A stretch of DNA of 64,000 nucleotides. It comes from an uncultured virus (IMG/VR IMGVR_UViG_3300037112_000094). Its lineage: Duplodnaviria > Heunggongvirae > Uroviricota > Caudoviricetes. Where the stretch lies: positions 1 through 64,000 of the IMG/VR virus record IMGVR_UViG_3300037112_000094, one strand, 5' to 3'. Shown one piece after another: positions 2,061-33,582 of this stretch; the first letter of the stretch is position 1; every line of letters starts with the position of its first letter. A program made the translations under genes and the position numbers. Under the pieces are notes generated by a model, which saw only the letters and a list, made by a program, of their open reading frames with translations, had not been told where the DNA came from and did no database searches.

Positions 2061-2092
2061 AACAACAAAAACCCCCGGCCTGAGCCGAGGGT
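2061..2092 (-). terminator. attenuator terminator upstream of tRNA operon 1
   Basis: ACCCTCGGC-TCAG-GCCGGGGGT then TTTTGTTGTTT, just before tRNA-Trp. Confidence 0.85.
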
Positions 2093-2117
2093 CTGTGGAC
2101 TCGAATCTGATTGCAGA

Positions 2118-2207
2118 TTAGTCGTCCCAACCCTCGCGCACAACTCCCCAAATGACCCGCTTGGTCCCGGTCATGGAGGTTCTCACGGATTTGGACCTTA
2201 TCTGCAC
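2118..2207 (-). CDS. leader peptide 1, MQIRSKSVRTSMTGTKRVIWGVVREGWDD
   Basis: GTG 7 nt after the -10 box; has a codon for all 11 downstream tRNAs; 3' end overlaps the antiterminator arm. Confidence 0.85.
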   Translation of the reverse strand: MQIRSKSVRTSMTGTKRVIWGVVREGWDD

Positions 2208-2214
2208 GAAATTC

Positions 2215-2243
2215 AGCCTACACCTGTTTCGGATTCTTTGCAA
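2215..2243 (-). promoter_or_regulatory. sigma70-type promoter of tRNA operon 1
   Basis: TTGCAA-N17-TAGGCT. Confidence 0.75.
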
Positions 2244-2347
2244 GTAAAAAATTACCTGAGTTCAGCGAAAAGCCCCGTGCTTCAGCTCGGGGATGGATAG
2301 CTGGTCGTCAAGAGTTCAGCCCCTTTAGGGGTTGATACGAAAGGCGG

Positions 2348-2767: not shown

Positions 2768-2792
2768 AGACCAAGTGTATAGTGGAGACATC

Positions 2793-3917: not shown

Positions 3918-3984
3918 GCAGGCTGTTTTAGCCAATGGAGCCCGCGAGGGCTCTAGAATCTCCGTCCTTTAGGTCGGAGAGTCG

Positions 3985-5541: not shown

Positions 5542-5841
5542 TTACGCGCCGACAGGCTCGCCAAGTGCGGCCAGTTCCTTGTCGATGGAATCGCGCTTCT
5601 CCTGCGCAGTCTTGAGACTGTCGCGCTGCGACTTCAACTCACGGATACGCGTTGCACGGCGGTCGGCCATGCGCGAGTCGATCTCGCGAGCGAGGGTGTT
5701 CAGGTTGTCCGAAACGTACTCGGGTACCGCAACCTTCTGGGCCTCGAACTCACCGCGAAGCTGCTTGCCAAACGCCGACAACGCAACAAGCTCGTCGATG
5801 GATGCAGCGTCCACATTGAAGTTCTTGAATTCCTGAAGCAT
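5542..5841 (-). CDS. small coiled-coil protein
   Basis: AGGAGG SD before MLQEFK; alternative start 5919. Confidence 0.7.
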   Translation of the reverse strand: MLQEFKNFNVDAASIDELVALSAFGKQLRGEFEAQKVAVPEYVSDNLNTLAREIDSRMADRRATRIRELKSQRDSLKTAQEKRDSIDKELAALGEPVGA

Positions 5842-5918
5842 AGGCTTCCTCCTTTCCGTCTTCTCCATACCGGGGTTGACAAAGATGTTCTTCCTCTTCA
5901 TTGGAATCTTCTTCGGCA

Positions 5919-7427
5919 TTACGCACCAACCAGTTCACCGATCTTGAGCACGTCGCTGAGCGACAAGAGCGGAGTTGTCAGAATCTCGTCCACCAAACTA
6001 TAGCGATTCGAACGCATTGACTGAACGAGGTTCGGCAGGGAATAGTAATCGATCTGGCTTCCACGAAGGTCAAACATCTGCGACTCGATCCCTGCGTTGT
6101 TCAGGTAGCCGCTGAACGTGTTGTTGTCGCCGCTCGTGCTGTAGAAGTAGACCGGCACTTCCTTGCCCACGAACTCCGAATACTTCTTGTAGACGTTGTG
6201 GAAGAACGGAGCCGTGTTCTCGCCGCCGTCTGAAACAACGGCGATGCCGTCGACCTCGATCTTCTCCTCCAGCATCCGGTTCAAACCGCATCCGATGGAA
6301 GTGCCTCCGTCTGCGCGAATGTGCCGCGTTGCCTTCTGGATTTGATCGAGCGAAAGCCCGGTCACGTCCACCGTCATCGGGACAACGTCGAAGAACACCA
6401 GCCACACCTTGCCCTTGACGAACTGAGCAAGCTGTGCCGAAACCTGCCGTGCGACCTCGATGGCCACCCTCATGCTTCCGCTCTTGTCGGCAAGCACAAG
6501 CCAGTTGCCCTCCGGTCCGCCAGCCGCAGCGATCTGCTGCTTCTGGAGCCCACGGAGCTTCTCCTTCAGCCCCTCGTCCTCGACGGCGTCGACGGCCTGA
6601 GTCGTCTTCAGCGTGTTCTTCTTCGACTTCGCAGCCTTCTCCATCGCCTTCTCGAACGCACCGCGAAGCGCTGGGTTGTTCTTCATGCCCAGCTTCTCCA
6701 GCATCTTCACGTTCGTCGTCAACTCGGTCGGCGACATGCGTTCGATCAGAGCAAGAACAAGATCAGTGTCCTTGGCCTTCTCCCCGAGCGCGCCCATGGC
6801 GATAAGGAACGGAATCCTGAACCTCAAGATCGCGCCAGCCGCCTCAACAGGAGACATGCTCTTCAGGTTGGCCACGGCCTCAAAGATCGATCCCTTTGGC
6901 AACGCCAGCTTGGTCACGACCATCGAGCCGTTGATGCTCTCCTTCCACTGGCCGGAGATCACAGCCGCGACGTGGCGGTTGCCCGGACCGGTGCGAGAAA
7001 GAGCGTAGAGCGCCTTGAGCACCTTGCGGTGCTGGATGGCAAGGTGATCCCAGCCCTTCTCCCCTTCCTTCTGGCGGAGGTAGGCGCGGATCATCCGATC
7101 CATCCGCGACATCTTTCCCTTCGGGCGCATCTCGCGCACGAAGTCGAACGCCTTGCGCATCTCACGCGGGCCGAGCAGCGCGAGGTGCGCGATGCTGTTG
7201 TCGAGAAGCTCAAAATCGCTTTCGTATGCCAGACCAAGAACCGGCAGCGCGATCTTCGCATCGCGAACCTGTGAATTCTTAAACGTCCATGCCACGAGAT
7301 GCTGATAGAACTCGCCTTCCTGCTCGATGGCTTGCTTGCCGATGGGGATGTAGTCGCTCAGCTTCCCGTGAGGGCTGCGTGCCAATTCGGCATAAATTCT
7401 TTGCTTCGTTAAACCAGATTCTGTCAT
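5919..7427 (-). CDS. Ro60/TROVE-like RNA-binding protein with C-terminal vWA domain
   Basis: helical N-terminal region; MIDAS DKSGS...GGTS...VSDGGEN; lies downstream of Y-RNA-like modules. Confidence 0.65.
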   Translation of the reverse strand: MTESGLTKQRIYAELARSPHGKLSDYIPIGKQAIEQEGEFYQHLVAWTFKNSQVRDAKIALPVLGLAYESDFELLDNSIAHLALLGPREMRKAFDFVREMRPKGKMSRMDRMIRAYLRQKEGEKGWDHLAIQHRKVLKALYALSRTGPGNRHVAAVISGQWKESINGSMVVTKLALPKGSIFEAVANLKSMSPVEAAGAILRFRIPFLIAMGALGEKAKDTDLVLALIERMSPTELTTNVKMLEKLGMKNNPALRGAFEKAMEKAAKSKKNTLKTTQAVDAVEDEGLKEKLRGLQKQQIAAAGGPEGNWLVLADKSGSMRVAIEVARQVSAQLAQFVKGKVWLVFFDVVPMTVDVTGLSLDQIQKATRHIRADGGTSIGCGLNRMLEEKIEVDGIAVVSDGGENTAPFFHNVYKKYSEFVGKEVPVYFYSTSGDNNTFSGYLNNAGIESQMFDLRGSQIDYYSLPNLVQSMRSNRYSLVDEILTTPLLSLSDVLKIGELVGA

Positions 7428-7440
7428 TTTCCTATTTCTC

Positions 7441-7992
7441 CTATTCCACATGCTGCCATGATTCACGATCAACCACGCGACGTATTGTTGCCGGGTCAAC
7501 CTCAAATATCCGAGCTAACTTCATGAACGAAAAATTGCACTGTTCGGCGAGGCTACGAATTGCTTGTACACGCTCCTCAGTTAAAACCGATAGTGCATGT
7601 CGCTCACCTTTTCCGGCCCTCTGGCGTCCGCGTTGAATCATATCGCGGATATTATCAAGTTGAGTCCCAACAATTAGATGGTCTGGGTTAACACAGCATC
7701 GTACATCGCACTTATGCCTCACAACCTGACCAAATTCGAGTGGCCCATGCTTTTTGACGTACATGAAACGGTGGACACGAATTACTATTCTTCCGCCATC
7801 CTGTAACGTCGCTCCGATATGTGCATAGCCCTTATCGTCCGATGAGCCGATCCAAAGCCAACAACCACTCATTGGCTCGTGGCTGATATTTTTCTCAATG
7901 CGGCCATAAAGAGATTGCCCAGAAGTTCTTCCAAGATAACTTACATAGTCGGCCATGCTCAGCTTTGTCACCGCATCGTTCATGCGACTCAT
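7441..7992 (-). CDS. HNH endonuclease with C-terminal HTH
   Basis: CWLWIG...RVHR...VRHKCDVRCCVNPDHL..GTQLDN. Confidence 0.85.
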   Translation of the reverse strand: MSRMNDAVTKLSMADYVSYLGRTSGQSLYGRIEKNISHEPMSGCWLWIGSSDDKGYAHIGATLQDGGRIVIRVHRFMYVKKHGPLEFGQVVRHKCDVRCCVNPDHLIVGTQLDNIRDMIQRGRQRAGKGERHALSVLTEERVQAIRSLAEQCNFSFMKLARIFEVDPATIRRVVDRESWQHVE

Positions 7993-8574: not shown

Positions 8575-8709
8575 GGGTTGTAGTCGATATGGTTTAGATT
8601 TTGCGGAGCCTTGCGGCTCGCGCCCCCCATATTGATGAAGCCGAATAAGGTGGTGGAGGGGGCCGGAGTTTCCCCCGGAACAAAGTCATGTATCCACTTC
8701 AGTCAACCC
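8575..8709 (-). ncRNA. Y-RNA-like module 7 (T arm, closed acceptor, D-like hairpin)
   Basis: GGGTTGACTG..GGATACATG ... CGACTACAACCC closing stem; internal CCCCCTCCACCA and GGGGGGC. Confidence 0.65.
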
Positions 8710-8714
8710 AAACT

Positions 8715-8824
8715 TGGCTGGGGGACTCGGTTACGAGCCGAGATTGGCTTGCGCCAAAAAGACATGTATCCGAATCAGTCAGCAGTATCGCTGTAGTCGT
8801 TCCGGAACCTCTTAGGTCCCCCAG
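8715..8824 (-). ncRNA. Y-RNA-like module 6 (tRNA-like ends, conserved stem inserted internally)
   Basis: CTGGGGGA/TCCCCCAG-CCA; internal CGACTACAGC-loop-GCTGACTG..TACATG. Confidence 0.65.
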
Positions 8825-8834
8825 TAAAACTTGA

Positions 8835-8961
8835 TGGTGGCGGGTGAAGGATTCGAACCTCCATACTGTTGTAACCAAATACAACCGTCTTTTCCATGTA
8901 TCCGACTCAGTCAGCGTCGCCGCTGTAGTCGACCCGGAAGTTAGCTTTTGACTAACCCGCC
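8835..8961 (-). ncRNA. Y-RNA-like module 5 (tRNA body, TGG loop, conserved stem inserted)
   Basis: GGCGGGT/ACCCGCC-ACCA; GGAGG-TTCGAAT-CCTTC; internal conserved stem. Confidence 0.7.
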
Positions 8962-8970
8962 ACAACTTAT

Positions 8971-9093
8971 TGGCCTGTAGTCGAAGTGCTACCCCTTGCG
9001 GGGTGGTACAGGTTGGATTTGAACCAACTACCGTCTGATTAAGAGTCAGATGCTCGACCAATTGAGCTTCATGTAAGCACTTCTGTCAGGCCA
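8971..9093 (-). ncRNA. Y-RNA-like module 4 enclosing Lys(CTT)-like D, anticodon and T arms
   Basis: TGGCCTGACAG..TACATG ... CGACTACAGGCCA; TCTGA-CTCTTAA-TCAGA; GTTGG-TTCAAAT-CCAAC. Confidence 0.7.
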
Positions 9094-9105
9094 AATTCAA
9101 AATCA

Positions 9106-9244
9106 TTGTGCTGTAGTCGATCTGCTATTTTACGCGCTCTACCGCTGAGCTAATCCCCCGTCAATTCTTTGATGGTGGAGGATGAAGGATTCGAACCTCC
9201 GACCTCGGTCTCCAAAGGACATGTAAGCAAGTCAGTCAGCACAA
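9106..9244 (-). ncRNA. Y-RNA-like module 3 (circularly permuted tRNA, YrlA-like order)
   Basis: conserved stem, T arm, ATCCTCCACCA, linker, GGGGGAT, D arm GCTCAGCGGTAGAGC, conserved stem. Confidence 0.75.
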
Positions 9245-9250
9245 ACTTTA

Positions 9251-9314
9251 TGGCTTGTAGTCGATCTGCATGGTGTTCCTGCTCTCAAAGCATGTATGCA
9301 AATCAGTCAAGCCA
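9251..9314 (-). ncRNA. Y-RNA-like module 2 (minimal)
   Basis: GGCTTGACTGATTTGCATACATG ... TGCAGATCGACTACAAGCC. Confidence 0.65.
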
Positions 9315-9325
9315 ATTTTTTTCTC

Positions 9326-9435
9326 CGCTGTAGTCGTCAGGCAACCCTTTCGGGACATCCGGGAATCGCACCCGGTTCGTTTCATCTCAATTGAAATGCC
9401 TCGCTTTGAGGCGCATGTAAGCCAAACAGTCAGCG
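9326..9435 (-). ncRNA. Y-RNA-like module 1
   Basis: CGCTGACTG..GCTTACATG ... CGACTACAGCG; T-arm-like CCGGG-TGCGATT-CCCGG. Confidence 0.65.
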
Positions 9436-9466
9436 AAAACTCAATCTCAAAAACGCAACGTCTCTA

Positions 9467-11955: not shown

Positions 11956-12501
11956 TTACCTAAATTGTAACCTCGTTTCGCCTTCGGAATCAGAAAAAAG
12001 GAACTTTCCCCATTCCTCAACTTCTCTGCCAAGCTGTTTCAAAATGAAGCGGCTTGTAAAGATATTCGCGGGCAGCGGCCTATGGATCAACTTCATTCCA
12101 GCCTCTTCCGGCGTCCGGTTGTTCTTACGTCTATTGCACGGGGAACAGGCAGCAACAAGGTTGTCCCATGACTGCTTACCACCTCTGCTTCTCGGGATCA
12201 CGTGCTCCAGTTCAAGCTCTGCCCCGTTGTTCTTCTTCGCGCCGCAGTACATGCACCTGAAACCGTCGCGAATGAAAATGTTCTTCCTCGAAACCTGCTG
12301 CATCCGGTGCGGGACGTTCCTGTAGTGCCGCAAACGGATGACGGAAGGAAGGTAGATTCCCTTGTGGACTTGGATGCTGGTTGGCACCTCCACCACGGCA
12401 ACGCCCTTGGTTATGAGCGTGAGCGCCTTTCGCGCGCTGACGATTCTCAGCGGCTCATACGACGCGTTAAGTTGTAGTACCGCTCTCCGTATGAGTGCCA
12501 T
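11956..12501 (-). CDS. HNH endonuclease (McrA-like)
   Basis: VLQLNASYEPL...RDGFRCMYCG...EHVIPRSRGG..WDNLVAACSPCNRRK. Confidence 0.9.
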   Translation of the reverse strand: MALIRRAVLQLNASYEPLRIVSARKALTLITKGVAVVEVPTSIQVHKGIYLPSVIRLRHYRNVPHRMQQVSRKNIFIRDGFRCMYCGAKKNNGAELELEHVIPRSRGGKQSWDNLVAACSPCNRRKNNRTPEEAGMKLIHRPLPANIFTSRFILKQLGREVEEWGKFLFSDSEGETRLQFR

Positions 12502-12849: not shown

Positions 12850-12925
12850 TGGCTGGCTCTCCGGGACTCGAACCCAGATCATTCGCTCCAGAGGCGAAGG
12901 TCCTCAACCATTGAACGAAGAGCCA
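12850..12925 (-). tRNA. tRNA-Gln(CTG)
   Basis: TTCGC-CTCTGGA-GCGAA; U1-A72. Confidence 0.9.
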
Positions 12926-12935
12926 ACTTCTAAAC

Positions 12936-13010
12936 TGGCTCAAGGGGTGGGAGTCGGACCCACAACGACACGGTTAACAGCCGTGGGCTCTACCATTGAG
13001 CTACCCTTGA
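12936..13010 (-). tRNA. tRNA-Asn(GTT)
   Basis: CACGG-CTGTTAA-CCGTG; U1-A72, G73. Confidence 0.9.
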
Positions 13011-13020
13011 ACATCCCCAC

Positions 13021-13059
13021 AAACGAGAACCCCCAGTTCCTTTCGGTTCTGGGGGTCTC
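13021..13059 (-). terminator. attenuator terminator upstream of tRNA operon 2
   Basis: GAGACCCCCAGAACC-GAAA-GGAACTGGGGGTTCTC-GTTT; U-tract is weak. Confidence 0.75.
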
Positions 13060-13101
13060 AAGTTTTTCCATCTGTGTTAGGAAAAAATCTGTCTGAGACC
13101 C

Positions 13102-13173
13102 CTAGTCCGCACCGCCGCTATTACCGGCTGGTTGCGTCGGCTGTGTCGCTGCGTTATGGAATCGGGTTCTCAC
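13102..13173 (-). CDS. leader peptide 2, MRTRFHNAATQPTQPAGNSGGAD
   Basis: GTG 7 nt after the -10 box; has a codon for all 12 downstream tRNAs. Confidence 0.88.
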   Translation of the reverse strand: MRTRFHNAATQPTQPAGNSGGAD

Positions 13174-13180
13174 GTTTTCC

Positions 13181-13209
13181 ACGATATAATCAATCAGGAA
13201 AACTGTCAA
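13181..13209 (-). promoter_or_regulatory. promoter of tRNA operon 2
   Basis: TTGACA-N17-TATCGT. Confidence 0.8.
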
Positions 13210-16120: not shown

Positions 16121-16197
16121 TGGTTGCGAGGGAGGGATTCGAACCCTCGATCTCCAGCTTATGAGGCTGGCGAGATAGACCGCTTCTCCACCACGCG
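16121..16197 (-). tRNA. tRNA-Met(CAT), initiator-like
   Basis: C1xA72 mismatch; CCAGC-CTCATAA-GCTGG, without the usual GGG/CCC anticodon-stem run. Confidence 0.8.
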
Positions 16198-16203
16198 CTA
16201 TTT

Positions 16204-16232
16204 ACAGTACCACGGAACCTGCGCGCGTGCAA
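16204..16232 (-). promoter_or_regulatory. promoter of tRNA operon 4, no leader
   Basis: TTGCAC-N17-TACTGT directly before the initiator-like tRNA. Confidence 0.65.
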
Positions 16233-17190: not shown

Positions 17191-17281
17191 TGGTGCGTTG
17201 GGCAGGATTTGAACCTGCAGCGTCATCGAAGATGATCCAGATTTACAGTCTGGTAGAGTCCACCGTCTCTCCAGCCAACGC
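17191..17281 (-). tRNA. tRNA-Tyr(GTA)
   Basis: CCAGA-CTGTAAA-TCTGG; long variable arm. Confidence 0.9.
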
Positions 17282-17385
17282 ACGTGGTAAACTTCCGTTC
17301 AGGACGGCCTCATGATGCCGCCAAAGGGGGAGTCTGGTACTGCTTCACCGTTGTTGCACGACCTGTCAATCTCCCCCTTACAAAC

Positions 17386-17475
17386 TGGCGGATGGTGAGG
17401 GATTCGAACCCCCGAGACCCTTCGGTCTACTGGTACTCAAGGCCAGCGCGATCAACCAGACTCTGCCAACCATCC
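17386..17475 (-). tRNA. tRNA-Ser(TGA)
   Basis: CTGGC-CTTGAGT-ACCAG; long variable arm; G73. Confidence 0.85.
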
Positions 17476-17481
17476 AAAACT

Positions 17482-17569
17482 TGGCGGAAGCGGAGCGAGT
17501 CGAACGCTCAACACCCGAAGGTGTGTCCCGCTTCGAACGGGGTGGGCCTGCCAAATGCCCAACGCTTCC
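17482..17569 (-). tRNA. tRNA-Ser(CGA)
   Basis: CCCCG-TTCGAAG-CGGGA; long variable arm. Confidence 0.85.
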
Positions 17570-17574
17570 AAAAC

Positions 17575-17661
17575 TGGCGGAAGGGACAGGAGTCGAACCT
17601 GCACACGCTTTCACGTGACCCGGTTTCCAGCCGGGGGCGATACCGTTCCGCTCACCCTTCC
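17575..17661 (-). tRNA. tRNA-Ser(GGA)
   Basis: CCCGG-CTGGAAA-CCGGG; long variable arm. Confidence 0.9.
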
Positions 17662-17670
17662 GTAAAAATA

Positions 17671-17756
17671 TGGCGGAGCGCCAGTGAATCGAACACTGTC
17701 AACCTCGCGGTTGTGCGGCTTAGCAAGCCGTTGCATTACCATCCTGCCCGCGCTCC
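17671..17756 (-). tRNA. tRNA-Ser(GCT)
   Basis: CGGC-TTGCTAA-GCCG; long variable arm. Confidence 0.9.
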
Positions 17757-17764
17757 GTAAAACT

Positions 17765-17842
17765 TGGTGCGGATGATCGGCCTCGAACCGATAAGCCTGA
17801 AGGTTTGAGCTTCAGAGGTATTCCGTTTCCCTTCACATCCGC
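17765..17842 (-). tRNA. tRNA-Leu(CAA), short variable loop
   Basis: TGAAG-CTCAAAC-CTTCA; A73. Confidence 0.8.
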
Positions 17843-17847
17843 AAACT

Positions 17848-17933
17848 TGGTGCGCGTGGCGAGACTCGAACTCGCAATGGGTGTTACCCCTCCGGTGCCT
17901 AAAACCGGCGCTTTTCCGTTTTGCTACACGCGC
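17848..17933 (-). tRNA. tRNA-Leu(TAG)
   Basis: CCGGT-TTTAGGC-ACCGG; long variable arm. Confidence 0.9.
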
Positions 17934-18664
17934 ACATCCTTATTGCCACGACTCCTGCCGAAAACCTTGGGCATCTCCATGCCATATCGCCGAATCCACT
18001 TCCTAACAGCGTTGTCAGAGACTCCGAATTTTTCACCAATCTTTATCATCGGCAACGTTTGCAATAAGGATTGCAATTCTACAGGGCTCGGTCGGTCCAC
18101 TTTTCTCAAACGCGGCTTGTCCCTTGTTCTCCAGTAACCGTCCGAAGACGGGTGCCTGACCTCTCTCCCTTGCCTCTTTGGCCTGAGCTTAGGTGGGAGG
18201 AATTGCTTCGAATCCTTTCTGCGAGAAAATGTAAGAGTTTGGGAATGACAATTGGGGCAAATAAACTCTAGGTTTTCCTCTACATCGTTTTGGAAGTTTC
18301 CATCCTTGTGTTCTATCTCAAGAATCAGTTTCTTTCCACGCCACTCGCGAAGCCCACAAACATAACACTTATATGGCCGTCCAATGTCGAGCAGCGAACG
18401 CACAAGCACCTTTGCTCTCTGCCTTTTCAGGTCTGCATGGTAAACCAAATATGAATCGGCTTCCCTTCGATTCAAACTGGGCTTTCCTAAATGCCAACGC
18501 TTTCCGATGAAGTGGCTTGTGCTGATCCCATATTCCTTAATCCTCTTCGAAACATGGTGAGATGTTCCACCAGCCAGATTTGGTGCTCCGCATTTTCTCA
18601 ATACGTCTGCCATTGAAAAACTTTCTTTCACGGCCTGTTCGAGAATTTCCTTTGTGTACTTCAT
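17924..18664 (-). CDS. HNH endonuclease with HTH; stop lies inside tRNA-Leu(TAG)
   Basis: CYVCG...LEIEHKDGN..N...NLEFICPNCHSQT; TATAAT 9 nt before ATG. Confidence 0.85.
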   Translation of the reverse strand: MKYTKEILEQAVKESFSMADVLRKCGAPNLAGGTSHHVSKRIKEYGISTSHFIGKRWHLGKPSLNRREADSYLVYHADLKRQRAKVLVRSLLDIGRPYKCYVCGLREWRGKKLILEIEHKDGNFQNDVEENLEFICPNCHSQTLTFSRRKDSKQFLPPKLRPKRQGREVRHPSSDGYWRTRDKPRLRKVDRPSPVELQSLLQTLPMIKIGEKFGVSDNAVRKWIRRYGMEMPKVFGRSRGNKDVRV

Positions 18665-18698
18665 GATGGTTCAATTATACCATCATGGTTCAAATCTT

Positions 18699-18778
18699 TG
18701 GTGGGCAGAGTGGAATTCGAATCCACAAAATCACAGCCGTCTGAAGACTGCCGCTTTGCCAAATTTGCGTACCTGCCC
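18699..18778 (-). tRNA. tRNA-Leu(CAG), short variable loop
   Basis: CAGTC-TTCAGAC-GGCTG; A73. Confidence 0.8.
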
Positions 18779-18779
18779 G

Positions 18780-18856
18780 TGGTGCGCGAGGGGGAAATCG
18801 AATCCCCAAACACCAGACCCTCGATCTGGCGGCTTTGCCTGTTTGCCTACTCGCGC
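18780..18856 (-). tRNA. tRNA-Leu(GAG), short variable loop
   Basis: CCAGA-TCGAGGG-TCTGG; A73. Confidence 0.8.
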
Positions 18857-18864
18857 GTGAAACT

Positions 18865-18940
18865 TGGAGGACCGGGCCGGATTTTAACCAGCGATTAGCA
18901 AGGTTGCAGCTTGCCGCGTTTAACACTTCGCCACCGATCC
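18865..18940 (-). tRNA. tRNA-Cys(GCA)
   Basis: GCAAG-CTGCAAC-CTTGC; U73. Confidence 0.9.
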
Positions 18941-18941
18941 A

Positions 18942-19018
18942 TGGTGCCCGCAGGGGTACTCGAAACCCCATCCCGACCTTTTTAAGAAGTCGCGCTCTGC
19001 CATTTGGCGTACACGGGC
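18942..19018 (-). tRNA. tRNA-Leu(TAA), short variable loop
   Basis: GACTT-CTTAAAA-AGGTC; A73. Confidence 0.8.
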
Positions 19019-19020
19019 AC

Positions 19021-19050
19021 AAACTAAAAAGCCCCCGATTTCTCGGAGGC
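19021..19050 (-). terminator. attenuator terminator upstream of tRNA operon 3
   Basis: GCCTCCGA-GAAA-TCGGGGGC-TTTTTAGTTT. Confidence 0.85.
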
Positions 19051-19079
19051 CGCTGACTGAATTCCACTTTGGACTCAGT

Positions 19080-19148
19080 TCACGAACCCCCGCCACCGCT
19101 CAGTAATGAGCTATACGAGGAGAGCGAACTGAGGCACACTGTCTTCAT
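19080..19148 (-). CDS. leader peptide 3, MKTVCLSSLSSYSSLLSGGGGS
   Basis: 13 consecutive Cys/Leu/Ser/Tyr codons upstream of a Cys/Leu/Ser/Tyr tRNA operon. Confidence 0.88.
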   Translation of the reverse strand: MKTVCLSSLSSYSSLLSGGGGS

Positions 19149-19157
19149 AGCGAAACC

Positions 19158-19186
19158 ATCATTCCATGGAATTGGTGGGTTGTCAA
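19158..19186 (-). promoter_or_regulatory. promoter of tRNA operon 3
   Basis: TTGACA-N17-AATGAT, 9 nt before ATG. Confidence 0.65.
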
Positions 19187-19590
19187 CGTTTTTCTTCGTC
19201 CACCACGAATCGGCTCACTGGACAACGCAGACAGGCGATCTTCTTCCCATCGAAAGGCACATCACTTGGAACAAGCCGAACGTTGTGAACCCCGCAGATG
19301 GGGGGATTCGAATCGGGCTTCTGGAAACACTGCGCCGCCATGTGCTCAAAATGTTCAGTAGTGAACAGCCATCCATCGCAATCTTAGCATATAATCGGCT
19401 TGAGGTGAACTATGTCAACGATCCTGCTCGTTTTCGCTTTAGTTTTAGCGATCCTTGCGGCGCTCGGTGTTCCGAACCCTCCGCAGCGCTGGAGCCTCGG
19501 TTGGGCTGCATTTGCGTTCTTCGTGGCCTCCATCCTGTTCAACGGAATCCTGCCGCTTCACATCGGTCACTAACCTCATAGGAGGATGAT

Positions 19591-21233: not shown

Positions 21234-21323
21234 GGACGATACTGTTTCACAAAGCAGTTTTTGTGTCAATTGCGATCTTTTATTCACTTGACAGTGAACA
21301 GCATCCAAACTATCTTCAAGCGC

Positions 21324-22562
21324 ATGGCTGAGCAACCCACGCCGCTCCTCTTTATTTCCGATAGTCCGTCATCGTCGAGTGGCCTCGGCAGGATATGCCG
21401 AGACCTCACGACAAGGGCGCACGAGCATTTGACGGATGTCTACAGAGTCGGAGTCTTAGGCCACGGCGGACCGGGCTCCCGCAGATTCGGTTTCGTAAAT
21501 TATGTGATCGAGGGAATGCAGGAGTGGGCCATCCCAACACTTCCTGAAGTCTGGGAGGATTTTGCTGGGAACGAACCGGGTATCATCTGCACTATTTGGG
21601 ACCTATCGCGCTTAGATTGGATTGCGCAGCCAAAATACTCTGAAGCCGCCGTGCTCAAGAATCCGGAATTGCGCCAGTGGCTCGTCAAACGTCCGTTCAA
21701 GCTCTTTGGGTACGTGCCAATAGACGGCTCAGGCCCGAACGACAGGCTCTCGTTTCCCCTTATGCGGACGGCGCTGGGCTTCGACCGTCTGCTGGCCTAC
21801 GGTCCGTTTGGTGAAGGCGTCCTATGCAGAACCATCGGCGATAAGCAAGCGGCTGAGCGTCATCTGACAAATTTGCCACACGGCTTTGATGGCGATGTCT
21901 TTTACGAGAGAAACCGCGCTCTTTGCCGTCACATGTTCTTCCAGATCACGGGCGGGCAGCAGATTATGGAGGATCACGGCCCCATCACGGAAGATGAATG
22001 CCTGATTTCCATAGTCGCCACAAATCAGGATCGCAAAAATTGGGCGTTGGGTATCGAAACGGCGGCGATACTTGCCAGAAATCGCAAGGTCCGCCTTTGG
22101 GCGCACACAGATGCATTCGAGCGATTTTGGAGTATACCAGCGCTATTGTGCGACTACGGGATGATCGACAAAACGATAATCAGCTTGGGCCAAATTACCG
22201 ATCAAAAAATGGCAGAAGCACTATCCGCCTGCGACCTCATGCTCGGAATCGGACCCGAGGGTTTTGGACTCCCGTTAGCCGAAAGTCTCGCCTGCGGCAC
22301 TCCCGTGATCACTGGCTCTTACGCTGGCGCAGCGGATTTTGTCCCAAAGGAAATGCAAGTCGATCCGATGGTTGACGGTTCGGGAAGTGCAGCGTTTTAC
22401 CATGCGGGATCATTTGGCACCAAGCGCCCTGTTTACAACGCAGAAAATTGGGCGGCGAAGGCGAACGAATGGATCGGAAAGCGAACGCATCTCGATCCGC
22501 GCTACGAGTGGAAGAACAATTGGGTTGCGTGGGAGAAGTGGTTTCGGGACGCGGTGAAATGA
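21324..22562 (+). CDS. GT-B (GT4-like) glycosyltransferase
   Basis: SDSPSSSSGLGR; EGFGLPLAESLACGTPVI; TTGACA-N17-TATCTT-N7-ATG. Confidence 0.85.
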   Translation: MAEQPTPLLFISDSPSSSSGLGRICRDLTTRAHEHLTDVYRVGVLGHGGPGSRRFGFVNYVIEGMQEWAIPTLPEVWEDFAGNEPGIICTIWDLSRLDWIAQPKYSEAAVLKNPELRQWLVKRPFKLFGYVPIDGSGPNDRLSFPLMRTALGFDRLLAYGPFGEGVLCRTIGDKQAAERHLTNLPHGFDGDVFYERNRALCRHMFFQITGGQQIMEDHGPITEDECLISIVATNQDRKNWALGIETAAILARNRKVRLWAHTDAFERFWSIPALLCDYGMIDKTIISLGQITDQKMAEALSACDLMLGIGPEGFGLPLAESLACGTPVITGSYAGAADFVPKEMQVDPMVDGSGSAAFYHAGSFGTKRPVYNAENWAAKANEWIGKRTHLDPRYEWKNNWVAWEKWFRDAVK

Positions 22563-23182
22563 GTGTGTGGATCACCAATTTCAATAACCTAAATCGAGGG
22601 TTTAGCCGTCTTGTTGATTGGCTCATCGAGGCTGATGTTCCCTTCACTGTCATCGACAATGCATCGACATGGGAGCCGCTGCTTAGGTATTACGAGGCCG
22701 CGCATTTTCCCATAGTCCGTTGCGAGAAGAATCTTGGGCCTTATGCGTTTTGGGAACTTGGCTTTCATCAAGCAGCAAGAAGGTTCATCGTCACGGACCC
22801 AGATGTTGTTCCCTGCGCGAACTGTCCCAGAGACCTCCTTGAGCGTATGAGCCTAATGATGGACAGGGGATACAGTACGGTCGGGCCGTCACTTCGTATC
22901 GACAACCTTCCCGACTGTTACGATGCTAAAAATAGGGTTATCGCTTGGGAGCAGCAATGGTGGCAGCGTCCTGTAGATGGAGGGTTTGAGGCCAATCTCG
23001 ATACAACTTTCTCGATGTATGAGGAGGGAACGATGCCGCGCGCTTGGGATAATGGGCTCCAAGGTTGCAGATTGGCTCCGCCATATCAGTTCGAGCACCT
23101 TCCTTGGTACGAAGGTCCGGGACCTAATCCAGAGCGGGATTTCTATAACGCCACGAGGCGAAAGGAGTGGACAAATTGGTAA
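22559..23182 (+). CDS. GT-A (GT2-like) glycosyltransferase
   Basis: VIDNAST, NLG, VTDPD. Confidence 0.75.
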   Translation: MSVWITNFNNLNRGFSRLVDWLIEADVPFTVIDNASTWEPLLRYYEAAHFPIVRCEKNLGPYAFWELGFHQAARRFIVTDPDVVPCANCPRDLLERMSLMMDRGYSTVGPSLRIDNLPDCYDAKNRVIAWEQQWWQRPVDGGFEANLDTTFSMYEEGTMPRAWDNGLQGCRLAPPYQFEHLPWYEGPGPNPERDFYNATRRKEWTNW

Positions 23183-23676
23183 TCGTGAGCATGACGGAAG
23201 CTTCGGAAGCGTGGAAGCAGACGGCCTGTAACAATTGGGCTTCTCACCTCCCGCTGCTGAGAACCTGCGGCTGGGCGACGAGGGTTTTGGAACTTGGTAT
23301 GGGGAGATACTCTACGCCAACATTCCTCAACTCAGCCCTGTTTCCCTTTCTTGATACCTTAGTCTCAGTCGAAAGCGACCGTGGATGGATTCAGCAGTCA
23401 GAGGACGCGCGGCACAAAATTCATATCCATCCAGAGCCCATCGAACCATTTCTCGACGACTTTGATTTAGAGAATTTTGATTTGATTTTCGTCGACAATT
23501 CCGACAAAGCCGAACGGCGTATTGAAACGCTGAAGTACATCTCGTCCCGGCAACCAAGAAGAGCAAGCGTTCTCGTACACGACTGGGAGCGCTATCACGC
23601 TGCGGTTACAGGATTCAGGTTTGGCATCCTCGACGACAGACAGTTGCCGCACACGGCGTTAGTTTGGGGAAGATAA
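23167..23676 (+). CDS. class I SAM methyltransferase-like protein
   Basis: VLELGMGRYST; FDLIFVD; VHD. Confidence 0.65.
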   Translation: MDKLVIVSMTEASEAWKQTACNNWASHLPLLRTCGWATRVLELGMGRYSTPTFLNSALFPFLDTLVSVESDRGWIQQSEDARHKIHIHPEPIEPFLDDFDLENFDLIFVDNSDKAERRIETLKYISSRQPRRASVLVHDWERYHAAVTGFRFGILDDRQLPHTALVWGR

Positions 23677-24479
23677 TGAATCTTACCGTATCTAGCATGT
23701 TTCGCAACGATGCGCTCTATCTTCGCGAGTGGATCGAATTTCATCTGCTAATGGGTGTAGGGAGATTTTATCTCTACCATCAGGGAACCAGCACGCCGGA
23801 AGATGGCTGGAGGGAAGTTCTTCATCCGTATGTCGAGCGACGCATCGTTGATGTGAAAGAGTGGCCGTATAGGTGTCATCATAGCGGGGGCAGGAACGCC
23901 CAGATCGATGCGAATCAAGACTGCATCGACAGAATCAAAGGGCAAAAGGGATGGCTTGCCTTAATCGACAGCGATGAATTTCTTTTCTCGCCCCGCTACG
24001 AGACTGTTACCGAAGCGCTCGCTACTTTGCCGCAAACGTGCGGCGCTGTTGGGGTCCACTGGATGATGTTCGGATCGAGCGGGAAGCAGGAATGGGAAGA
24101 CGCTCCAGTGATCGAGCGATTTACTTGGAGGCCGAACGAAAGTCTTCCGTACAACCGCATGTACAAAAGCATCGTCAGACTGGACGATGCTGCCCTCTCA
24201 ACGCTTGGCAGTGAACACCATTTTCAGACCAGCGGTGGAACCATCAACGAAGATGGAACGCCTCTGCTCGACAGAGAGGCACCACCGCGCTCTTCCATCC
24301 TCCGGCTCAATCATTACTTTACAAAGTCGCGTAAAGAGTGGGAGCAACGGCATCCCATAGACACGAGCGGTGAGACTTGGGGGCGCGACGAAAATCGCTG
24401 GCTCTGGGTGCAGGCGATGGATGTAGACGACCGAACGATTCAACGATTTCTAGCAGCACTGAAAGAGAGACTGAAATGA
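23676..24479 (+). CDS. glycosyltransferase, GT92/GT2-like
   Basis: FRNDALYLREWIEFH..GV..FYLY; IDSDEF; LNHYFTKS. Confidence 0.85.
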   Translation: MNLTVSSMFRNDALYLREWIEFHLLMGVGRFYLYHQGTSTPEDGWREVLHPYVERRIVDVKEWPYRCHHSGGRNAQIDANQDCIDRIKGQKGWLALIDSDEFLFSPRYETVTEALATLPQTCGAVGVHWMMFGSSGKQEWEDAPVIERFTWRPNESLPYNRMYKSIVRLDDAALSTLGSEHHFQTSGGTINEDGTPLLDREAPPRSSILRLNHYFTKSRKEWEQRHPIDTSGETWGRDENRWLWVQAMDVDDRTIQRFLAALKERLK

Positions 24480-25000
24480 ATATCGCGCGAGCTTTGGCGA
24501 CGCCCGGTTGGATGAGCGAAGGGGAACTGTCTTACTTGGCCGAGGCTGCGAGTCGACGCCGTACCATCCTCGAAATTGGAAGCTGGGAAGGACGCAGCAC
24601 GATAGCTCTGGCTGAGAACACGAAAGGTGTCGTCTACGCTGTCGATAGCTGGACTGGAAGCATGGATCACAGGAGCGAACTGAGCGTGCAGGTATTGCCT
24701 GATTTTCTTCGCAATACTCAAGGCTTAAACAACATCCTTCCAGTTCCAATGGCATCACTGAGAGCGTGTGCGGTCCTTACGGAGTGCGTCGTTGACTTCG
24801 ATATGATCTTTATCGATGCTTCGCATGAATATCAGGACGTGAAGGCGGACATTCTTGCGTGGCGACAACTGTTGAGCCATGGTGGAATCCTGTGCGGCCA
24901 CGATTATGGAAACGAGTGGGCTGGGGTGAAGCAAGCCGTCGACGAACTGATTCCAAACTTTAGGCTGGTTGAAACCATTTGGACCACGGAGGAAGCATGA
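24476..25000 (+). CDS. class I SAM methyltransferase
   Basis: LEIGSWEGRST; FIDASHEY; GGILCGHDY. Confidence 0.85.
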   Translation: MNIARALATPGWMSEGELSYLAEAASRRRTILEIGSWEGRSTIALAENTKGVVYAVDSWTGSMDHRSELSVQVLPDFLRNTQGLNNILPVPMASLRACAVLTECVVDFDMIFIDASHEYQDVKADILAWRQLLSHGGILCGHDYGNEWAGVKQAVDELIPNFRLVETIWTTEEA

Positions 25001-25653
25001 GCGACTACCGCGTTTTTGTGCCGTTTGTAAACCGTCCCGACTTGCTCCACAACGCCGTCGAATCGCTGGCAGACGTGAAGCAGTACCTCGCCATCATCGA
25101 CAACTCGGTGGGAGATCAAAAATATCCATGGGATAACTTCGAGTCTCAGACCTTCAGACCTGTCGTTCCATACACGTTTTCGCAGACGATGAATCTGATC
25201 CTCAAGATCACGCGAGATACGGACGCAAAAATCTGCGTATTCATGCACTCGGACGCAGAGGCCGGTCCGGGTTCAGTGATGGCGCTGATATCTCAGGCAC
25301 GAAAGCTGACCGCCGAAGGCACGAAGTGGGGAGTGCTCTTCACAAATTACGATGCTCTCGCCGCGTTCAACGTGAACGCCTTCGAAGACATCGGCGGATG
25401 GGACACGAACCTTCCGCAATACTTCAGCGATAACGATACATATCGCCGCCTGAGACTCGCGGGCTGGGAGTGCATCGACACGGGCCTCCCAGTCAAGCAC
25501 GAACCATCACAGACGATCAAGAGCGATCCAAAGTTAAATTTCATCAACGGCGTGACCTTTCCACTCTACGGGTTCTATTACGAGCAGAAGCACGGAGGGC
25601 CTCCCGGAAAGGAAAGGTTCGACAAACCTTTTAATGGAGCGCTTGATCGATAA
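24997..25653 (+). CDS. GT2-like glycosyltransferase
   Basis: IIDNS; HSD; IGGWD...YFSDND..RR. Confidence 0.75.
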   Translation: MSDYRVFVPFVNRPDLLHNAVESLADVKQYLAIIDNSVGDQKYPWDNFESQTFRPVVPYTFSQTMNLILKITRDTDAKICVFMHSDAEAGPGSVMALISQARKLTAEGTKWGVLFTNYDALAAFNVNAFEDIGGWDTNLPQYFSDNDTYRRLRLAGWECIDTGLPVKHEPSQTIKSDPKLNFINGVTFPLYGFYYEQKHGGPPGKERFDKPFNGALDR

Positions 25654-28682: not shown

Positions 28683-31600
28683 CTATTGTCCAAACTGTTG
28701 TCCGGGTTTCACCGAGCCAAAGCCGTGGAACTTCATCCACGCCCTTCCCATCGGAGTTTCGCCATCGGGAAACTTCTCAGCGTAGAACTTGCCGAATTCC
28801 TTGTTAGCCGCAGGCGTCGAATCGTGCATATGCTTCGTTGCCCACTCCGTCGCCTTCTGTGACAGGTCTGTTGGCGGCTTCAGCTTCTCCGCCGCCCTCT
28901 TCACGCTCTTGAGGATGTTGGGGTTCGAAGGATCGTGTGCGCCCTCATTTTTTACAGATTTTATCTGCTCGGGGTAAAAGGCGATATACGAGTCGGTGCC
29001 TTTGTCTTCAAACTCGTTCCGATAAACAATGCCGTCATAGCCTTCGCGCTTTGCTTTCGCAACAGCAGGAGCCCAATCGTCTTCCTGATCCTTTACGCGT
29101 TTTGGATTTTGAATTGAAAGATATGCTTCCGTGAGAGGCATATCTTCGTCAACTTCTTGCTCGGTTGCGCGTTGCTCAAGATCGCGTCTCGCTGCAGCCT
29201 CCGTTTCAAACCCCTCTTCGTCAAAGTCGTAAGATTCCTCACTCCCCGACGACCATCCCCATACCATCTTTCCGTCTTCGTTTTCGTATTGTTCGACCTT
29301 GCCCTCACGGATAAAGTCATCGACAAGCTTCCCGCCGTTCCTCGACTGAGCCGCATCTCGTGTTCCAAAATGAAATCCGTTTTCTCCGATGTCCGGAACG
29401 GGGTCCTCTTTTTCGTCGAACCATCCGGAGTGGAACACGGGCTTAGGCTTCCCACTTTCGTCGGTCACCTTCGATTCTTTGAACCACGTCTTGAATTCGG
29501 GAGTATCCGTCCTCGCAGCGGCAGGTTGCAGAGCCTCAGCTTCGCGCTTGACCTTTTCTAGGCCGACTCCTTCCGCTCCTCCGCGTTGCGCTGGCGGGCC
29601 AGTTCCCTCAGCCCCTTGAGGCCGTCCTTTTTGTACGCCTCCCATGCCTCTCGCATTTTCTTGGACTCCGGGGAATCGGTCTGTGGTCGAGAAGTAGACA
29701 TTTTTCACTTCCTTTGCTAATGCGGTGATGTGGAGAAGCTCGTTGAGCGCCTTGTCTCCGTGCTCTGCTTCGACAGCGTGGAAATACTGAAAGAGATATG
29801 CGGCCCACTCGTCGTCCGTCAAGCCCAAACTTCTTGGGGACTCAGAAAGCATCTTGGAAGACGCTTCAAGGACACGCCTGCGGTTCATCACTTCACTTCC
29901 GTCGTTCTTGATCTCTGGATAGTTGGTGCCGAGATAATCGCTCATCGTCTTCGGCATCGCGACGTTCAAATTCGCAAAGTGTTCCGGAGAAAGATGGTTT
30001 CCTGCTGCGTCCGCGAATCGCCTTTGCCAGCCATGGTTCAATTCCTCGCGCAATGTGGCGAGCGCCTCACTCAGACTCTCTCCCTTCCTCGGCATCATAG
30101 AGATTGTCAGGCCATTCTTGTCCATGCCCCTGAGCATCATCTGCGTCAGTTCGCCGTGGAGCAGTGGCTTCAGCAACGCGAGATTGTTTGTGATCGCCTT
30201 GATGTCTGAAACATCGAGCGAGAGTCCGCTGAGGCCGTAATTCTTCGGCGGCGGTCCACCCATCAAACCGTGGTAGAGAGCCTTAAGTCCGCCACGGTTC
30301 AGGTAGAGAACTCTGTTTCCATCGGGAAGCTTGCGAATCTCGCCGATTTCTTTGTTCTTCAGTTCCCCAATGCGTTGGGCGATCTCCTTGTACCGCTCAA
30401 GAGAGGGAGCCGCCTTCTGTGCCCACGCCTTATATTCAGCACCCCACTTCTCAATCTGCTCCGGCGTGCTTGTGGAGACAGGGTCCGCTGGCGGTGGAAT
30501 CTGATCAAGCATACGTTGCACTTCGTAGAGCGCCATTTCCTCTCTGGCGATCTCGACTTCGCTTGCGGGCTGCGGTTTGTAGAGCAGCTTGAACAACGCG
30601 AACGGCCTGTTATTTTTATCTTCGACGGATTCAGTTGGACCATTTTTCGCTATGATCTGTCCATGCCTGTTCAAAGATTCTGCGAGTTGTGCGGGGCTGA
30701 GTTCTGGAGATACCCGAGCCAGATCAACGCCGCCAAGAATTGGGGCCGATGGTGCTCCGTTTCCTGCGCCCAACTCGCCATTTCCCAAGACCCCGCCGCC
30801 AAGGCCAAGATCGCCGCTAAGATCAGTGCTGCTAACAAAGGGCGCAAAAGCCCCAAGGACGCTAGGGTTCGCCTTAACTGCGCGAACTGCGGCCAAGAAT
30901 TCCTTGTCTCTACCTGTAGGATTCGGAGGAAGTACCCCATCAAGTGCTGCTCTAAAGCGTGTGCCAGCCAATTGAAGAGCACTCGAAAGCCCTCTGGCTA
31001 CCGTCGCTCGGTCATCGACGGGAAGAGCGTTGCTGACCACATCATACTGGCTAAAAAGTTGTTTGGTAGTGAAGCCGTTCTTGGCAAGCACATCCACCAC
31101 ATCGACGGGGATCGACTGAATAACGATCCTAGAAACCTTATTGTTCTTACCGAGCGCCAGCATCGCAGTGTTCACAACTTCCAGTGGATGAATGGAATCC
31201 TGCTTACCGCCAATGACATGTTGCGTTTCTTCCCTGATGCCCTCTGGTGTGGCGCTCCGAATTTTCCCGCCGCCTAATTGCGGAAGAACTTGTTTTGTAA
31301 CGTCGATAGCGTGGTATCCATTCTCGTCCTTGCCGATCTTGAAAATGCGAGTGACCGCATCGAGCGAAGTTGGCTTGTTAGTTGCTATTTCCCCAGCGCC
31401 ATGTCCTGAAGTTTCTGGGACTTTCGATGCATCTAATTCAATCACATAGCCCCCGTCGTGAACGTAGCTCGTCGCGACATTCGGACGATCAGAGAAAAAT
31501 GTCAACCCTTGATGTCCGCTCTTTCCTAAGCGCGATGCCGTTTCAGAAGTGGAGGCTATGCTCTTCGACGCGAGTATATTTCCAAGTTCTTCTTCGCCAT

Positions 31601-32573: not shown

Positions 32574-32670
32574 GGCACGATTATAGACGAAATTCAACGA
32601 TTTACGGAGTATAATCGGGGCGTCAGGTGTTTGCGCACCCGGCTCACGCCAACCGGAAAAGAGGTTTCCG

Positions 32671-33582
32671 ATGACACCCCACGAAGAAAATATACCAGAA
32701 AGCATAAAGCGGGTTTGCTGCAAATGCCGTATCCCGAAAATACTGGAGGAATTCCATGTTGATCGAGGAGAGCCGCATGGGCGAAAGTATAAATGCAAAA
32801 TATGCACGTACTCTGACAAGAAAGCAAGCTACAGAGAGAAGCATCCGAAACGCGAGATCGTCAGACCAGAATCAAAAATATGCTCTTCTTGCACCTGCTC
32901 ATTTAATGGGGTGCCTCAGCCGTTGGGCAACTATTCAAGATCAAAAAGCGGCCTCTACGGTCGTGCCTCGCGATGTAAGCAATGCGGGCGATCCTATCAG
33001 CAGAGGCAGTATGAGAAAGACGCCGATCACGTCAAGGAGATAAAAAGGAAATCAGAAAATAAAAATAGGGGACATAAGCGATTATGGCTGCTGAAAAAAT
33101 TGGAGGAAGACCCCGAATACAGAAAGCGTATATGTTCAAACTCTTATCTCAGAAATAAGGGGGCGATAGCCTCTAAAGCAAGGAGTAAAAGAATGAATAA
33201 TCAAGATGTTGCAACATGGGACAGAAAAAACAGACTGAAAAGTCGTGGAGTAGATTTAGAGTGGTACGAAAAGACCCTCGCCGCTCAAGGTGGAGTGTGC
33301 GCTATTTGCGGGTCGCCTGACAGTAGGTATCCAACCGGAAGATTTTCTATCGACCACGATCATAATTGCTGTAAACCCGGTCGGTCATGCGACAAATGCC
33401 GCCGTGGTTTGCTTTGTGTACTTTGCAATACGTGGATTGAGAGATTTGAGAAATACCCGAAGCTCGCGAGACGCGCGCTTGCATATCTAAACAGGCACAA
33501 GCGTTGCAGAGAAGATGATCTAGCAGACTTGCCGCTGTTTGAAGATCAAACGGGTATTATTCTCCCAAGCTCTTCGCTGTAG
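32671..33582 (+). CDS. endonuclease VII-like homing endonuclease
   Basis: QGGVCAICG...IDHDH..C...RGLLCVLCN. Confidence 0.85.
   Translation: MTPHEENIPESIKRVCCKCRIPKILEEFHVDRGEPHGRKYKCKICTYSDKKASYREKHPKREIVRPESKICSSCTCSFNGVPQPLGNYSRSKSGLYGRASRCKQCGRSYQQRQYEKDADHVKEIKRKSENKNRGHKRLWLLKKLEEDPEYRKRICSNSYLRNKGAIASKARSKRMNNQDVATWDRKNRLKSRGVDLEWYEKTLAAQGGVCAICGSPDSRYPTGRFSIDHDHNCCKPGRSCDKCRRGLLCVLCNTWIERFEKYPKLARRALAYLNRHKRCREDDLADLPLFEDQTGIILPSSSL

What the first reader, a model, noticed from the sequence alone, without database searches (positions are those of the whole stretch)
19021..19186. Leader 3: thirteen consecutive Cys/Leu/Ser/Tyr codons before a Cys/Leu/Ser/Tyr cluster
TGC CTC AGT TCG CTC TCC TCG TAT AGC TCA TTA CTG AGC covers all four Ser isoacceptors, Cys, Tyr and Leu GAG/TAA/CAG. 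CGGGGGTTCGTGAACTGAGTCC, which spans the stop, can pair with GGAATTCAGTCAGCGGCCTCCG and so sequester the terminator's 5' arm GCCTCCG.
Basis: partly seen in the sequence, partly recalled or inferred. Interest (0 to 1): 0.9.

Follow-up and report, generated by a model that had tools for sequence, protein, structure and literature searches.

The report
Codon-matched attenuator gating phage tRNAs
A soil phage places a tiny test gene, written in the codons that its eleven Leu/Ser/Cys/Tyr tRNA genes read, in front of a switchable transcription stop, so it probably makes those tRNAs only when ribosomes decode those codons slowly; the test codons also change in relatives whose tRNA set has changed.

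Summary
Confirmed. On the minus strand, a sigma-70-type promoter, a 22-codon ORF (19148-19080) with 13 consecutive Cys/Leu/Ser/Tyr codons, three alternative helices and a terminator (19051-19030) precede eleven Leu/Cys/Ser/Tyr tRNA genes. This is the only such run of 10 or more codons in six frames of the window. Two sister leaders head the other tRNA blocks, each in its own block's codons. Orthologous leaders occur in 25 of 32 related arrays and, unannotated, in cultured phage Tunturi 5. Codon content tracks tRNA content: Thr, Arg and Gly codons split by the isoacceptor in each block, and Asp/Glu codons appear in 8 of 8 leaders with Asp/Glu tRNAs joined to the block against 1 of 15 others (only 3 independent contrasts, so not significant). 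Best reading: a trp-style leader-peptide transcription attenuator whose output is the tRNAs it senses, a negative feedback loop. Host is probably Acidobacteriota. Translation, switching and the natural trigger (tRNA cleavage or starvation) are not shown. My paper searches found no such control of tRNA genes; earlier AI notes of this scan describe it in other phages.

The parts
19158..19186 (-). sigma-70-type promoter TTGACA-17-AATGAT with TG extension; start codon 38 nt from the -35, so the leader mRNA is nearly leaderless (inferred)
   Evidence: 19 of 25 homologs have 35-39 nt between -35 and start codon
19080..19148 (-). leader ORF, 22 codons, MKTVCLSSLSSYSSLLSGGGGS*
   Evidence: homologs
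19098..19136 (-). sensor run of 13 Cys/Leu/Ser/Tyr codons (segment 1)
19074..19133 (-). 1:2 protector hairpin (sensor codons paired with the antiterminator strand), -31.2 kcal/mol
   Evidence: 0 of 200 synonymous recodings fold as well
19043..19092 (-). 2:3 antiterminator helix spanning the stop codon and sequestering the terminator 5' arm, -26.7 kcal/mol
19021..19051 (-). 3:4 intrinsic terminator hairpin (19051-19030, -15.6 kcal/mol) and T-tract, ending 2 nt before tRNA-Leu(TAA)
18699..19018 (-). tRNA-Leu(TAA), Cys(GCA), Leu(GAG), Leu(CAG)
17924..18664 (-). HNH endonuclease ORF inserted in the block
   Evidence: phrog_10822, E 3e-45
17191..17933 (-). tRNA-Leu(TAG), Leu(CAA), Ser(GCT), Ser(GGA), Ser(CGA), Ser(TGA), Tyr(GTA)
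16204..16232 (-). separate promoter-like site (TTGCAC-17-TACTGT) directly before the initiator-like Met, Asp, Glu, Glu block; no leader ORF or terminator
13025..13209 (-). sister leader 2: promoter, ORF 13173-13102, terminator 13059-13025; heads the Asn/Gln/Gly/Thr/His/Ala/Phe/Pro/Arg(ACG) block
2066..2243 (-). sister leader 1: promoter TTGCAA, ORF 2207-2118, terminator 2097-2066; heads the Trp/Met/Ile/Lys/Arg/Val/Thr(GGT) block

Best explanation
A ribosome-dependent transcription attenuator that gates a phage tRNA operon. Host sigma-70 polymerase starts just before the ATG and a ribosome follows it (inferred). If Leu, Ser, Cys and Tyr codons are read at normal speed, the ribosome passes codon 17 and covers segment 2. 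The terminator then forms and no tRNA is made. If one of those tRNAs is missing or uncharged, the ribosome stalls in the sensor run, segment 2 pairs with the terminator's 5' arm, and polymerase reads into the eleven tRNA genes. Their products decode the sensor codons and close the switch again. The ORF, helices, tRNA match and conservation are shown in sequence or by folding. Translation, switching and feedback are inferred.
For: Chance: unique run, about 0.0006 expected. Three leaders each match their own block: in the window 13 of 15, 15 of 16 and 18 of 22 codons; over all homologs 306 of 419, 398 of 491 and 337 of 433, against phage coding-sequence backgrounds of 20%, 42% and 28%. All 25 block-3 leaders have a terminator and an ORF-end strand that can take its 5' arm (P 0.62 or more at some ribosome position). 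C/L/S/Y make up 273 of 344 codons in the antiterminating zone against 47 of 200 after it. The other two frames give 32% and 24% and contain stops. The 1:2 hairpin beats at least 95% of synonymous recodings in 19 of 25. Thr, Arg and Gly codons split by the isoacceptor held in each block. Asp/Glu codons follow Asp/Glu tRNAs: 8 of 8 against 1 of 15 in block 3, and 5 of 5 against 2 of 20 in block 1. A Cys codon is present in 20 of 20 leaders with tRNA-Cys and in 1 of 5 without. All three leaders are present in cultured phage Tunturi 5.
Against: Nothing functional was measured. 7 of 32 related block-3 heads had no leader within 260 nt. The co-variation rests on only 3 (block-3 Asp/Glu), 1 (block-1 Asp/Glu) and 3 (Cys) independent pairs, too few for significance. 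At equilibrium the full transcript keeps the terminator for stalls at codons 1-7 (P 0.99-1.0), and the ribosome-free truncated transcript favours the antiterminator (0.96). The window's short segment-2/arm duplex is not special: 9 of 22 non-cognate strands and 10% of shuffles pair as well. Across homologs only 7 of 25 beat all non-cognate partners. No TTG or CTA codon senses two of the block's Leu tRNAs. Coupling of transcription and translation in Acidobacteriota was not tested.
Confidence: 0.85

Rival explanations
1. Same switch, but it acts as a general sensor of slow translation (amino-acid starvation, ribosome stress), and the match to the tRNA block is incidental or only amino-acid-level.
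For: Any stall in codons 3-16 keeps the antiterminator in the folding model. Uncharged tRNA stalls ribosomes in classical attenuators (established knowledge). The Anabaena trn array is induced by general translational stress (PMC8421152, passages).
Against: Synonymous codons split by isoacceptor. Thr ACY:ACR is 70:4 in block-1 leaders and 23:63 in block-2; Arg AGR+CGG:CGH is 53:13 and 5:33; Gly GGR:GGY is 26:0 and 11:20 (rows are related). Codons come and go with tRNAs. Extra tRNA does not cure lack of an amino acid (inference).
Confidence: 0.08
2. A constitutive leaky terminator or processing hairpin. The Ser/Leu richness is a by-product of a pyrimidine-rich strand that must pair with a G-rich strand.
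For: The zone is T/C-rich (675 of 1032 bases) and pairs with the G-rich segment 2. Some relatives lack the leader, one (L108) with a bare promoter.
Against: Base composition predicts 127 C/L/S/Y codons, 30 Phe and 31 Pro; observed are 273, 8 and 1. The start codon and stop-free frame are kept in 25 leaders at a median pairwise identity of 60%. The sister leaders show different, block-specific codon sets.
Confidence: 0.04
3. The RNA senses tRNA directly, T-box style, or the short peptide is itself the functional product.
For: The leader is a stable fold (z -4.6) and its codons could act as specifiers.
Against: No Rfam family overlaps the leader at E up to 5. The leader is about 130 nt with 9-11 codon classes in one frame, not one specifier loop. 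Peptide order varies freely while composition is kept.
Confidence: 0.03

Closest known systems
Multivalent leader-peptide attenuators of enterobacterial amino-acid operons (thrL, ilvGMEDA leader; also trpL, hisL, leuL, pheL) and the pheM leader of pheST (recalled knowledge)
   Same: Short ORF with control codons, 1:2, 2:3 and 3:4 helices, and an intrinsic terminator before the regulated genes.
   Different: The output is tRNA genes, not enzymes or synthetases. It is on a phage. It lists 9-11 codon classes of four amino acids about once or twice each, matched at isoacceptor level. The mRNA is nearly leaderless. No Rfam leader family matches.
His leader peptides before hisS paralogs in bacilli (PMC2965389, passages)
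   Same: Codon-run leader controlling a translation-supply gene outside Proteobacteria.
   Different: One amino acid and a protein-coding target. The passages seen name no tRNA-gene target.
Anabaena trn operon and other long tRNA arrays (PMC8421152, passages)
   Same: Spare tRNA array with an HNH gene, silent until translation is stressed.
   Different: Control there was ascribed to a DNA-binding repressor at the promoter; 'attenuat' and 'leader' have 0 occurrences in its main text.
Phage tRNAs that counter tRNA-cleaving defences: T5/SP15 tRNA-Tyr against retron Eco7 (PMC11555353) and T5 tRNAs against PARIS (PMC12409363); passages
   Same: Phage tRNAs resupply tRNAs destroyed by host immunity; tRNA-Tyr is among the targets.
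   Different: There a strong promoter drives the tRNA ('attenuat' 0 occurrences in PMC11555353); here supply appears conditional on a codon sensor.
Tunturiibacter phage Tunturi 5 (PP885688.1; PMC11924767, passages)
   Same: Orthologous block-3 leader at record 231156-231254 with terminator 231282-231303, plus the two sister leaders.
   Different: Not annotated in the record or mentioned in the paper's main text (0 occurrences of attenuat, leader, terminator). Its Asp and Glu tRNAs sit in the Trp block, whose leader carries Asp and Glu codons.

Membership tests
Leader-peptide transcription attenuator | Short ORF between promoter and terminator, upstream of the regulated genes | tested here: met
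Leader-peptide transcription attenuator | Control codons matched to the function of the downstream genes | tested here: met
   13 of 15 codons in the window; cross-matrix and isoacceptor split
Leader-peptide transcription attenuator | Intrinsic terminator before the first regulated gene | tested here: met
   25 of 25 block-3 leaders, predicted
Leader-peptide transcription attenuator | Mutually exclusive antiterminator that is free when the ribosome sits on control codons | tested here: met
   Folding only: P 0.83 or more for codons 3-16 and 0 from codon 18 on the truncated transcript; partial at full-length equilibrium
Leader-peptide transcription attenuator | 1:2 protector hairpin | tested here: met
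   (19 of 25 beat at least 95% of synonymous recodings)
Leader-peptide transcription attenuator | The ORF is translated and read-through depends on cognate charged tRNA | not testable with these tools
   Only assembled RNA contigs were available
Described Rfam leader families (Trp, His, Leu, Thr and others) | Match to a curated covariance model | tested here: not met
   No hit over 19019-19190 at gathering threshold or E up to 5
T-box riboswitch | Stem I with specifier loop and T-box antiterminator bulge | tested here: not met
   No Rfam T-box hit; multi-codon open frame instead
Repressor-controlled tRNA array (Anabaena trn type) | Direct-repeat operator over the promoter and a repressor | not tested
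   No operator search was made

The most novel reading that the evidence does not exclude
The three leaders form a phage surveillance circuit against tRNA-destroying host immunity. Each leader polls the isoacceptors of one block, so cleavage of a given host tRNA switches on only the block that replaces it, and the new tRNA switches it off. The leader's codon list is rewritten whenever tRNA genes move between blocks.
Probability: 0.45. Interest if true: 0.9.

Novelty: new variant of a known kind. Interest (0 to 1): 0.78.

Why it matters
Why phages carry large tRNA sets is a long-standing question. A codon-matched switch says these tRNAs are made on demand, when specific decoding fails, rather than to tune codon usage constantly. 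It extends attenuation from enzymes to tRNA genes, giving a feedback loop in which sensor and product are the same molecule. The leaders are ready-made reporters of which tRNAs are lost during infection, and the same device in cultured Tunturi 5 makes the idea testable now.

Tried and rejected
The genome search 'relatives' does not work for a virus record. RNAalifold on 22 MAFFT-aligned terminators gave no consensus because stems of different length were out of register, so no formal covariation count is claimed. No cultured phage matched the leader or block 3 by blastn beyond single tRNA-Ser hits (30 records, 15 listed). Terminase family PF03237 was found in 0 of 5 records, so phage status rests on the IMG/VR class, weak tail-fibre and endolysin hits and relation to Tunturi 5. 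RNA: contigs from three peat metatranscriptomes match parts of the region without differences, including 18181-18910, but no listed contig spans the leader-3 terminator (263 pieces not shown). DNA carry-over is not excluded and contigs give no ends or levels. Thr(GGT) moving between blocks is followed only weakly by ACY codons: 1-2 per block-2 leader in 6 of 6 against 0-1 in 10 others, and block-1 leaders keep them. My 5'-arm measure missed several block-2 antiterminators: no switch in 12 and no terminator call in 3 of 28. I did not follow that up. Look-ups of earlier findings by place and by sequence were empty.

Full report
Context. The window is the first 64 kb of a 71,219-nt IMG/VR virus record. 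ARAGORN finds 35 tRNA genes, all on the minus strand, between 1165 and 19018. The array's conserved HNH gene (11956-12501) has its best genome-collection relatives in Acidobacteriota: 79 of the 80 records returned. Its best cultured-phage hit is Tunturiibacter phage Tunturi 5, at 46.5% identity. The host is therefore probably an acidobacterium (inference).

Observation. Reading the minus strand, TTGACA (19186), a 17-nt spacer and a TG-extended AATGAT precede a 22-codon ORF at 19148-19080. Codons 5-17 are the 13 codons quoted. No other C/L/S/Y run in six frames exceeds 9, and about 0.0006 runs of 13 are expected. A hairpin with a T-tract (19051-19021) ends just before tRNA-Leu(TAA). Eleven genes follow: Leu x5, Cys, Ser x4 and Tyr. 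The Met/Asp/Glu/Glu block after them has its own promoter-like site and no leader.

Structure. Three helices compete: codon run with ORF end (1:2, -31.2 kcal/mol), ORF end with terminator 5' arm (2:3, -26.7), and the terminator (-15.6). The whole leader folds better than 200 of 200 shuffles (z -4.6). I masked a ribosome footprint (12 nt from the A-site start) on a transcript cut before the terminator's 3' arm. The antiterminator then has P 0.83 or more for codons 3-16, 0.33 at codon 17 and 0 from codon 18. On the full transcript at equilibrium the terminator drops to 0.17-0.73 only for codons 8-15. Without any ribosome the cut transcript also favours the antiterminator (0.96). So switching at the first sensor codons, and silence without translation, depend on folding order, which I did not simulate.

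Sister leaders. Leaders 1 and 2 have the same layout. Counting codons 3 to n-5 under standard wobble rules, with four-way reading allowed for Val, Ala and Pro, 13 of 15, 15 of 16 and 18 of 22 codons are read by the leader's own block.

Homologs. I screened 74 fetched loci with four or more tRNAs. Of 32 distinct block-3 heads (L275, scattered host tRNAs, left out), 25 carry a leader, counting the window's own. Seven (L011, L108, L109, L110, L112, L142, L151) show none within 260 nt. ORF starts were picked by eye. Median pairwise identity is 60%. All 25 have a predicted terminator and an ORF-end strand able to take its 5' arm. Cognate duplexes average -14.0 against -11.3 for non-cognate ones, but only 7 of 25 beat every non-cognate partner, 12 of 25 beat 95% of shuffles, and the window's own duplex does neither. 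The 1:2 fold beats at least 95% of synonymous recodings in 19 of 25. In the antiterminating zone 273 of 344 codons are C/L/S/Y, against 47 of 200 after it. Base composition predicts 127, with 30 Phe and 31 Pro; 8 and 1 are seen, which rejects a pyrimidine by-product. Each leader samples 7-11 of the 11 codon classes. In 19 of 25 the start codon lies 35-39 nt from the -35, consistent with near-leaderless translation.

Codons track tRNAs. Over 77 distinct leaders, own-block codons are 73%, 81% and 78%, against 20%, 42% and 28% in 9,873 codons of phage genes. Thr, Arg and Gly have isoacceptors in both blocks 1 and 2, and the synonymous codons split accordingly: 70:4 and 23:63, 53:13 and 5:33, 26:0 and 11:20. 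Where Asp (with or without Met and Glu) follows Tyr within 29 nt with no evident promoter, 8 of 8 block-3 leaders have Asp or Glu in the zone. Where it is separate or absent, 1 of 15 does; L113 and L138 were left out as undetermined. On an HNH tree the trait needs 4 changes and gives 3 independent pairs, going the same way in 2.8 and never the other way, which is too few for significance. For block 1 the counts are 5 of 5 against 2 of 20 (three of those blocks are cut by contig ends), with 1 independent pair. A Cys codon is present in 20 of 20 leaders with tRNA-Cys and 1 of 5 without. In L157, block 1 follows block 2 without a leader, and leader 2 carries Trp, Lys, Val and Ile codons.

Cultured relative. 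An earlier AI note pointed to Tunturi 5, and I checked it. It has MKTLCLSSYCLSSSLSLSDGWDLRTGRDADMI* at record 231156-231254, a terminator at 231282-231303, and an antiterminator with P 0.86 for the stall positions sampled up to codon 16, falling to 0.07 at codon 18. It also has both sister leaders, and its Trp block holds Asp and Glu tRNAs with matching codons in the leader. None of this is annotated in the record.

Expression. Peat metatranscriptome contigs match the region, including one from tRNA-Cys into the HNH gene (18181-18910). Others bridge the terminators of leaders 1 and 2 (1796-2178; 12903-13131). None listed bridges leader 3, and DNA carry-over is not excluded. This is weak evidence.

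Mechanism. Shown in sequence or by folding: promoter match, ORF, helices, tRNA match, conservation and co-variation. Inferred: translation, coupling to polymerase, switching and feedback. The isoacceptor-level match and the once-each codon list suggest that tRNA supply, not amino-acid level, is monitored. Phage tRNAs are known to rescue infection from tRNA-cleaving defences (PMC11555353, PMC12409363; passages), which makes tRNA cleavage the likeliest trigger, but that link is untested here.

Literature. Nine searches (listings and abstract starts) and passages of five papers gave no case of leader-peptide attenuation of tRNA genes. The library lacks most subscription papers, and I read no supplements. 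Earlier AI notes of this scan report the same design in other phages. They are unchecked leads, except Tunturi 5, and they mean this locus is one of many instances rather than unique.

Verdict. A real feature; it works like a multivalent leader-peptide attenuator (0.85) and matches no described Rfam leader. It is a new variant of a known kind, because its targets are the tRNAs it senses. Interest 0.78.

Noticed in passing
window 8650-9450 (-) and 5919-7505 (-): A run of tRNA-like units that share a repeated short motif. One has a weak YrlA (Y RNA-like) Rfam hit (9128-9209, 27.9 bits, below the cut-off of 69). They lie upstream of a 528-aa ORF hitting phrog_850, RNA-binding protein (no Pfam or PDB hit). 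RNA contigs from three studies cover them. Possibly a cluster of Y RNAs with a Ro-like protein (inference).
   Followed up: partly
window 2255-3989: IS200/IS605-type element (Y1_Tnp and TnpB-like genes) inserted just upstream of leader 1's promoter. A contig of run X6 joins 2255 to 3989, showing the empty site.
   Followed up: partly
window 16121-16232 (-): Initiator-like tRNA-Met with Asp and Glu tRNAs sits directly behind a bare promoter-like site. An initiator tRNA cannot be sensed by an elongation stall, but in several relatives it lies behind leader 3 anyway.
   Followed up: partly
L013:3400-3600 (+): A differently ordered tRNA array also has a promoter, short ORF and terminator before its Pro/Gly/Thr tRNAs; the codon match was not scored.
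   Followed up: no
L217:11153-11221 (+): The block-1 leader begins with ATA and has a weak terminator (-7.8), while the block-2 leader carries Ile, Val and Glu codons, as if control had passed to leader 2.
   Followed up: partly
window 21261-25653 (+): Cluster of glycosyltransferase and methyltransferase genes, including a GT4-conflict hit.
   Followed up: no
window 28683-32819 (-): 1378-aa polyvalent protein with an ART-PolyVal ADP-ribosyltransferase domain.
   Followed up: no
window 5572-6333: RNA contigs from two studies cover the end of the 528-aa ORF and the DNA behind it up to a terminator at 5513-5492; possibly another small RNA.
   Followed up: no
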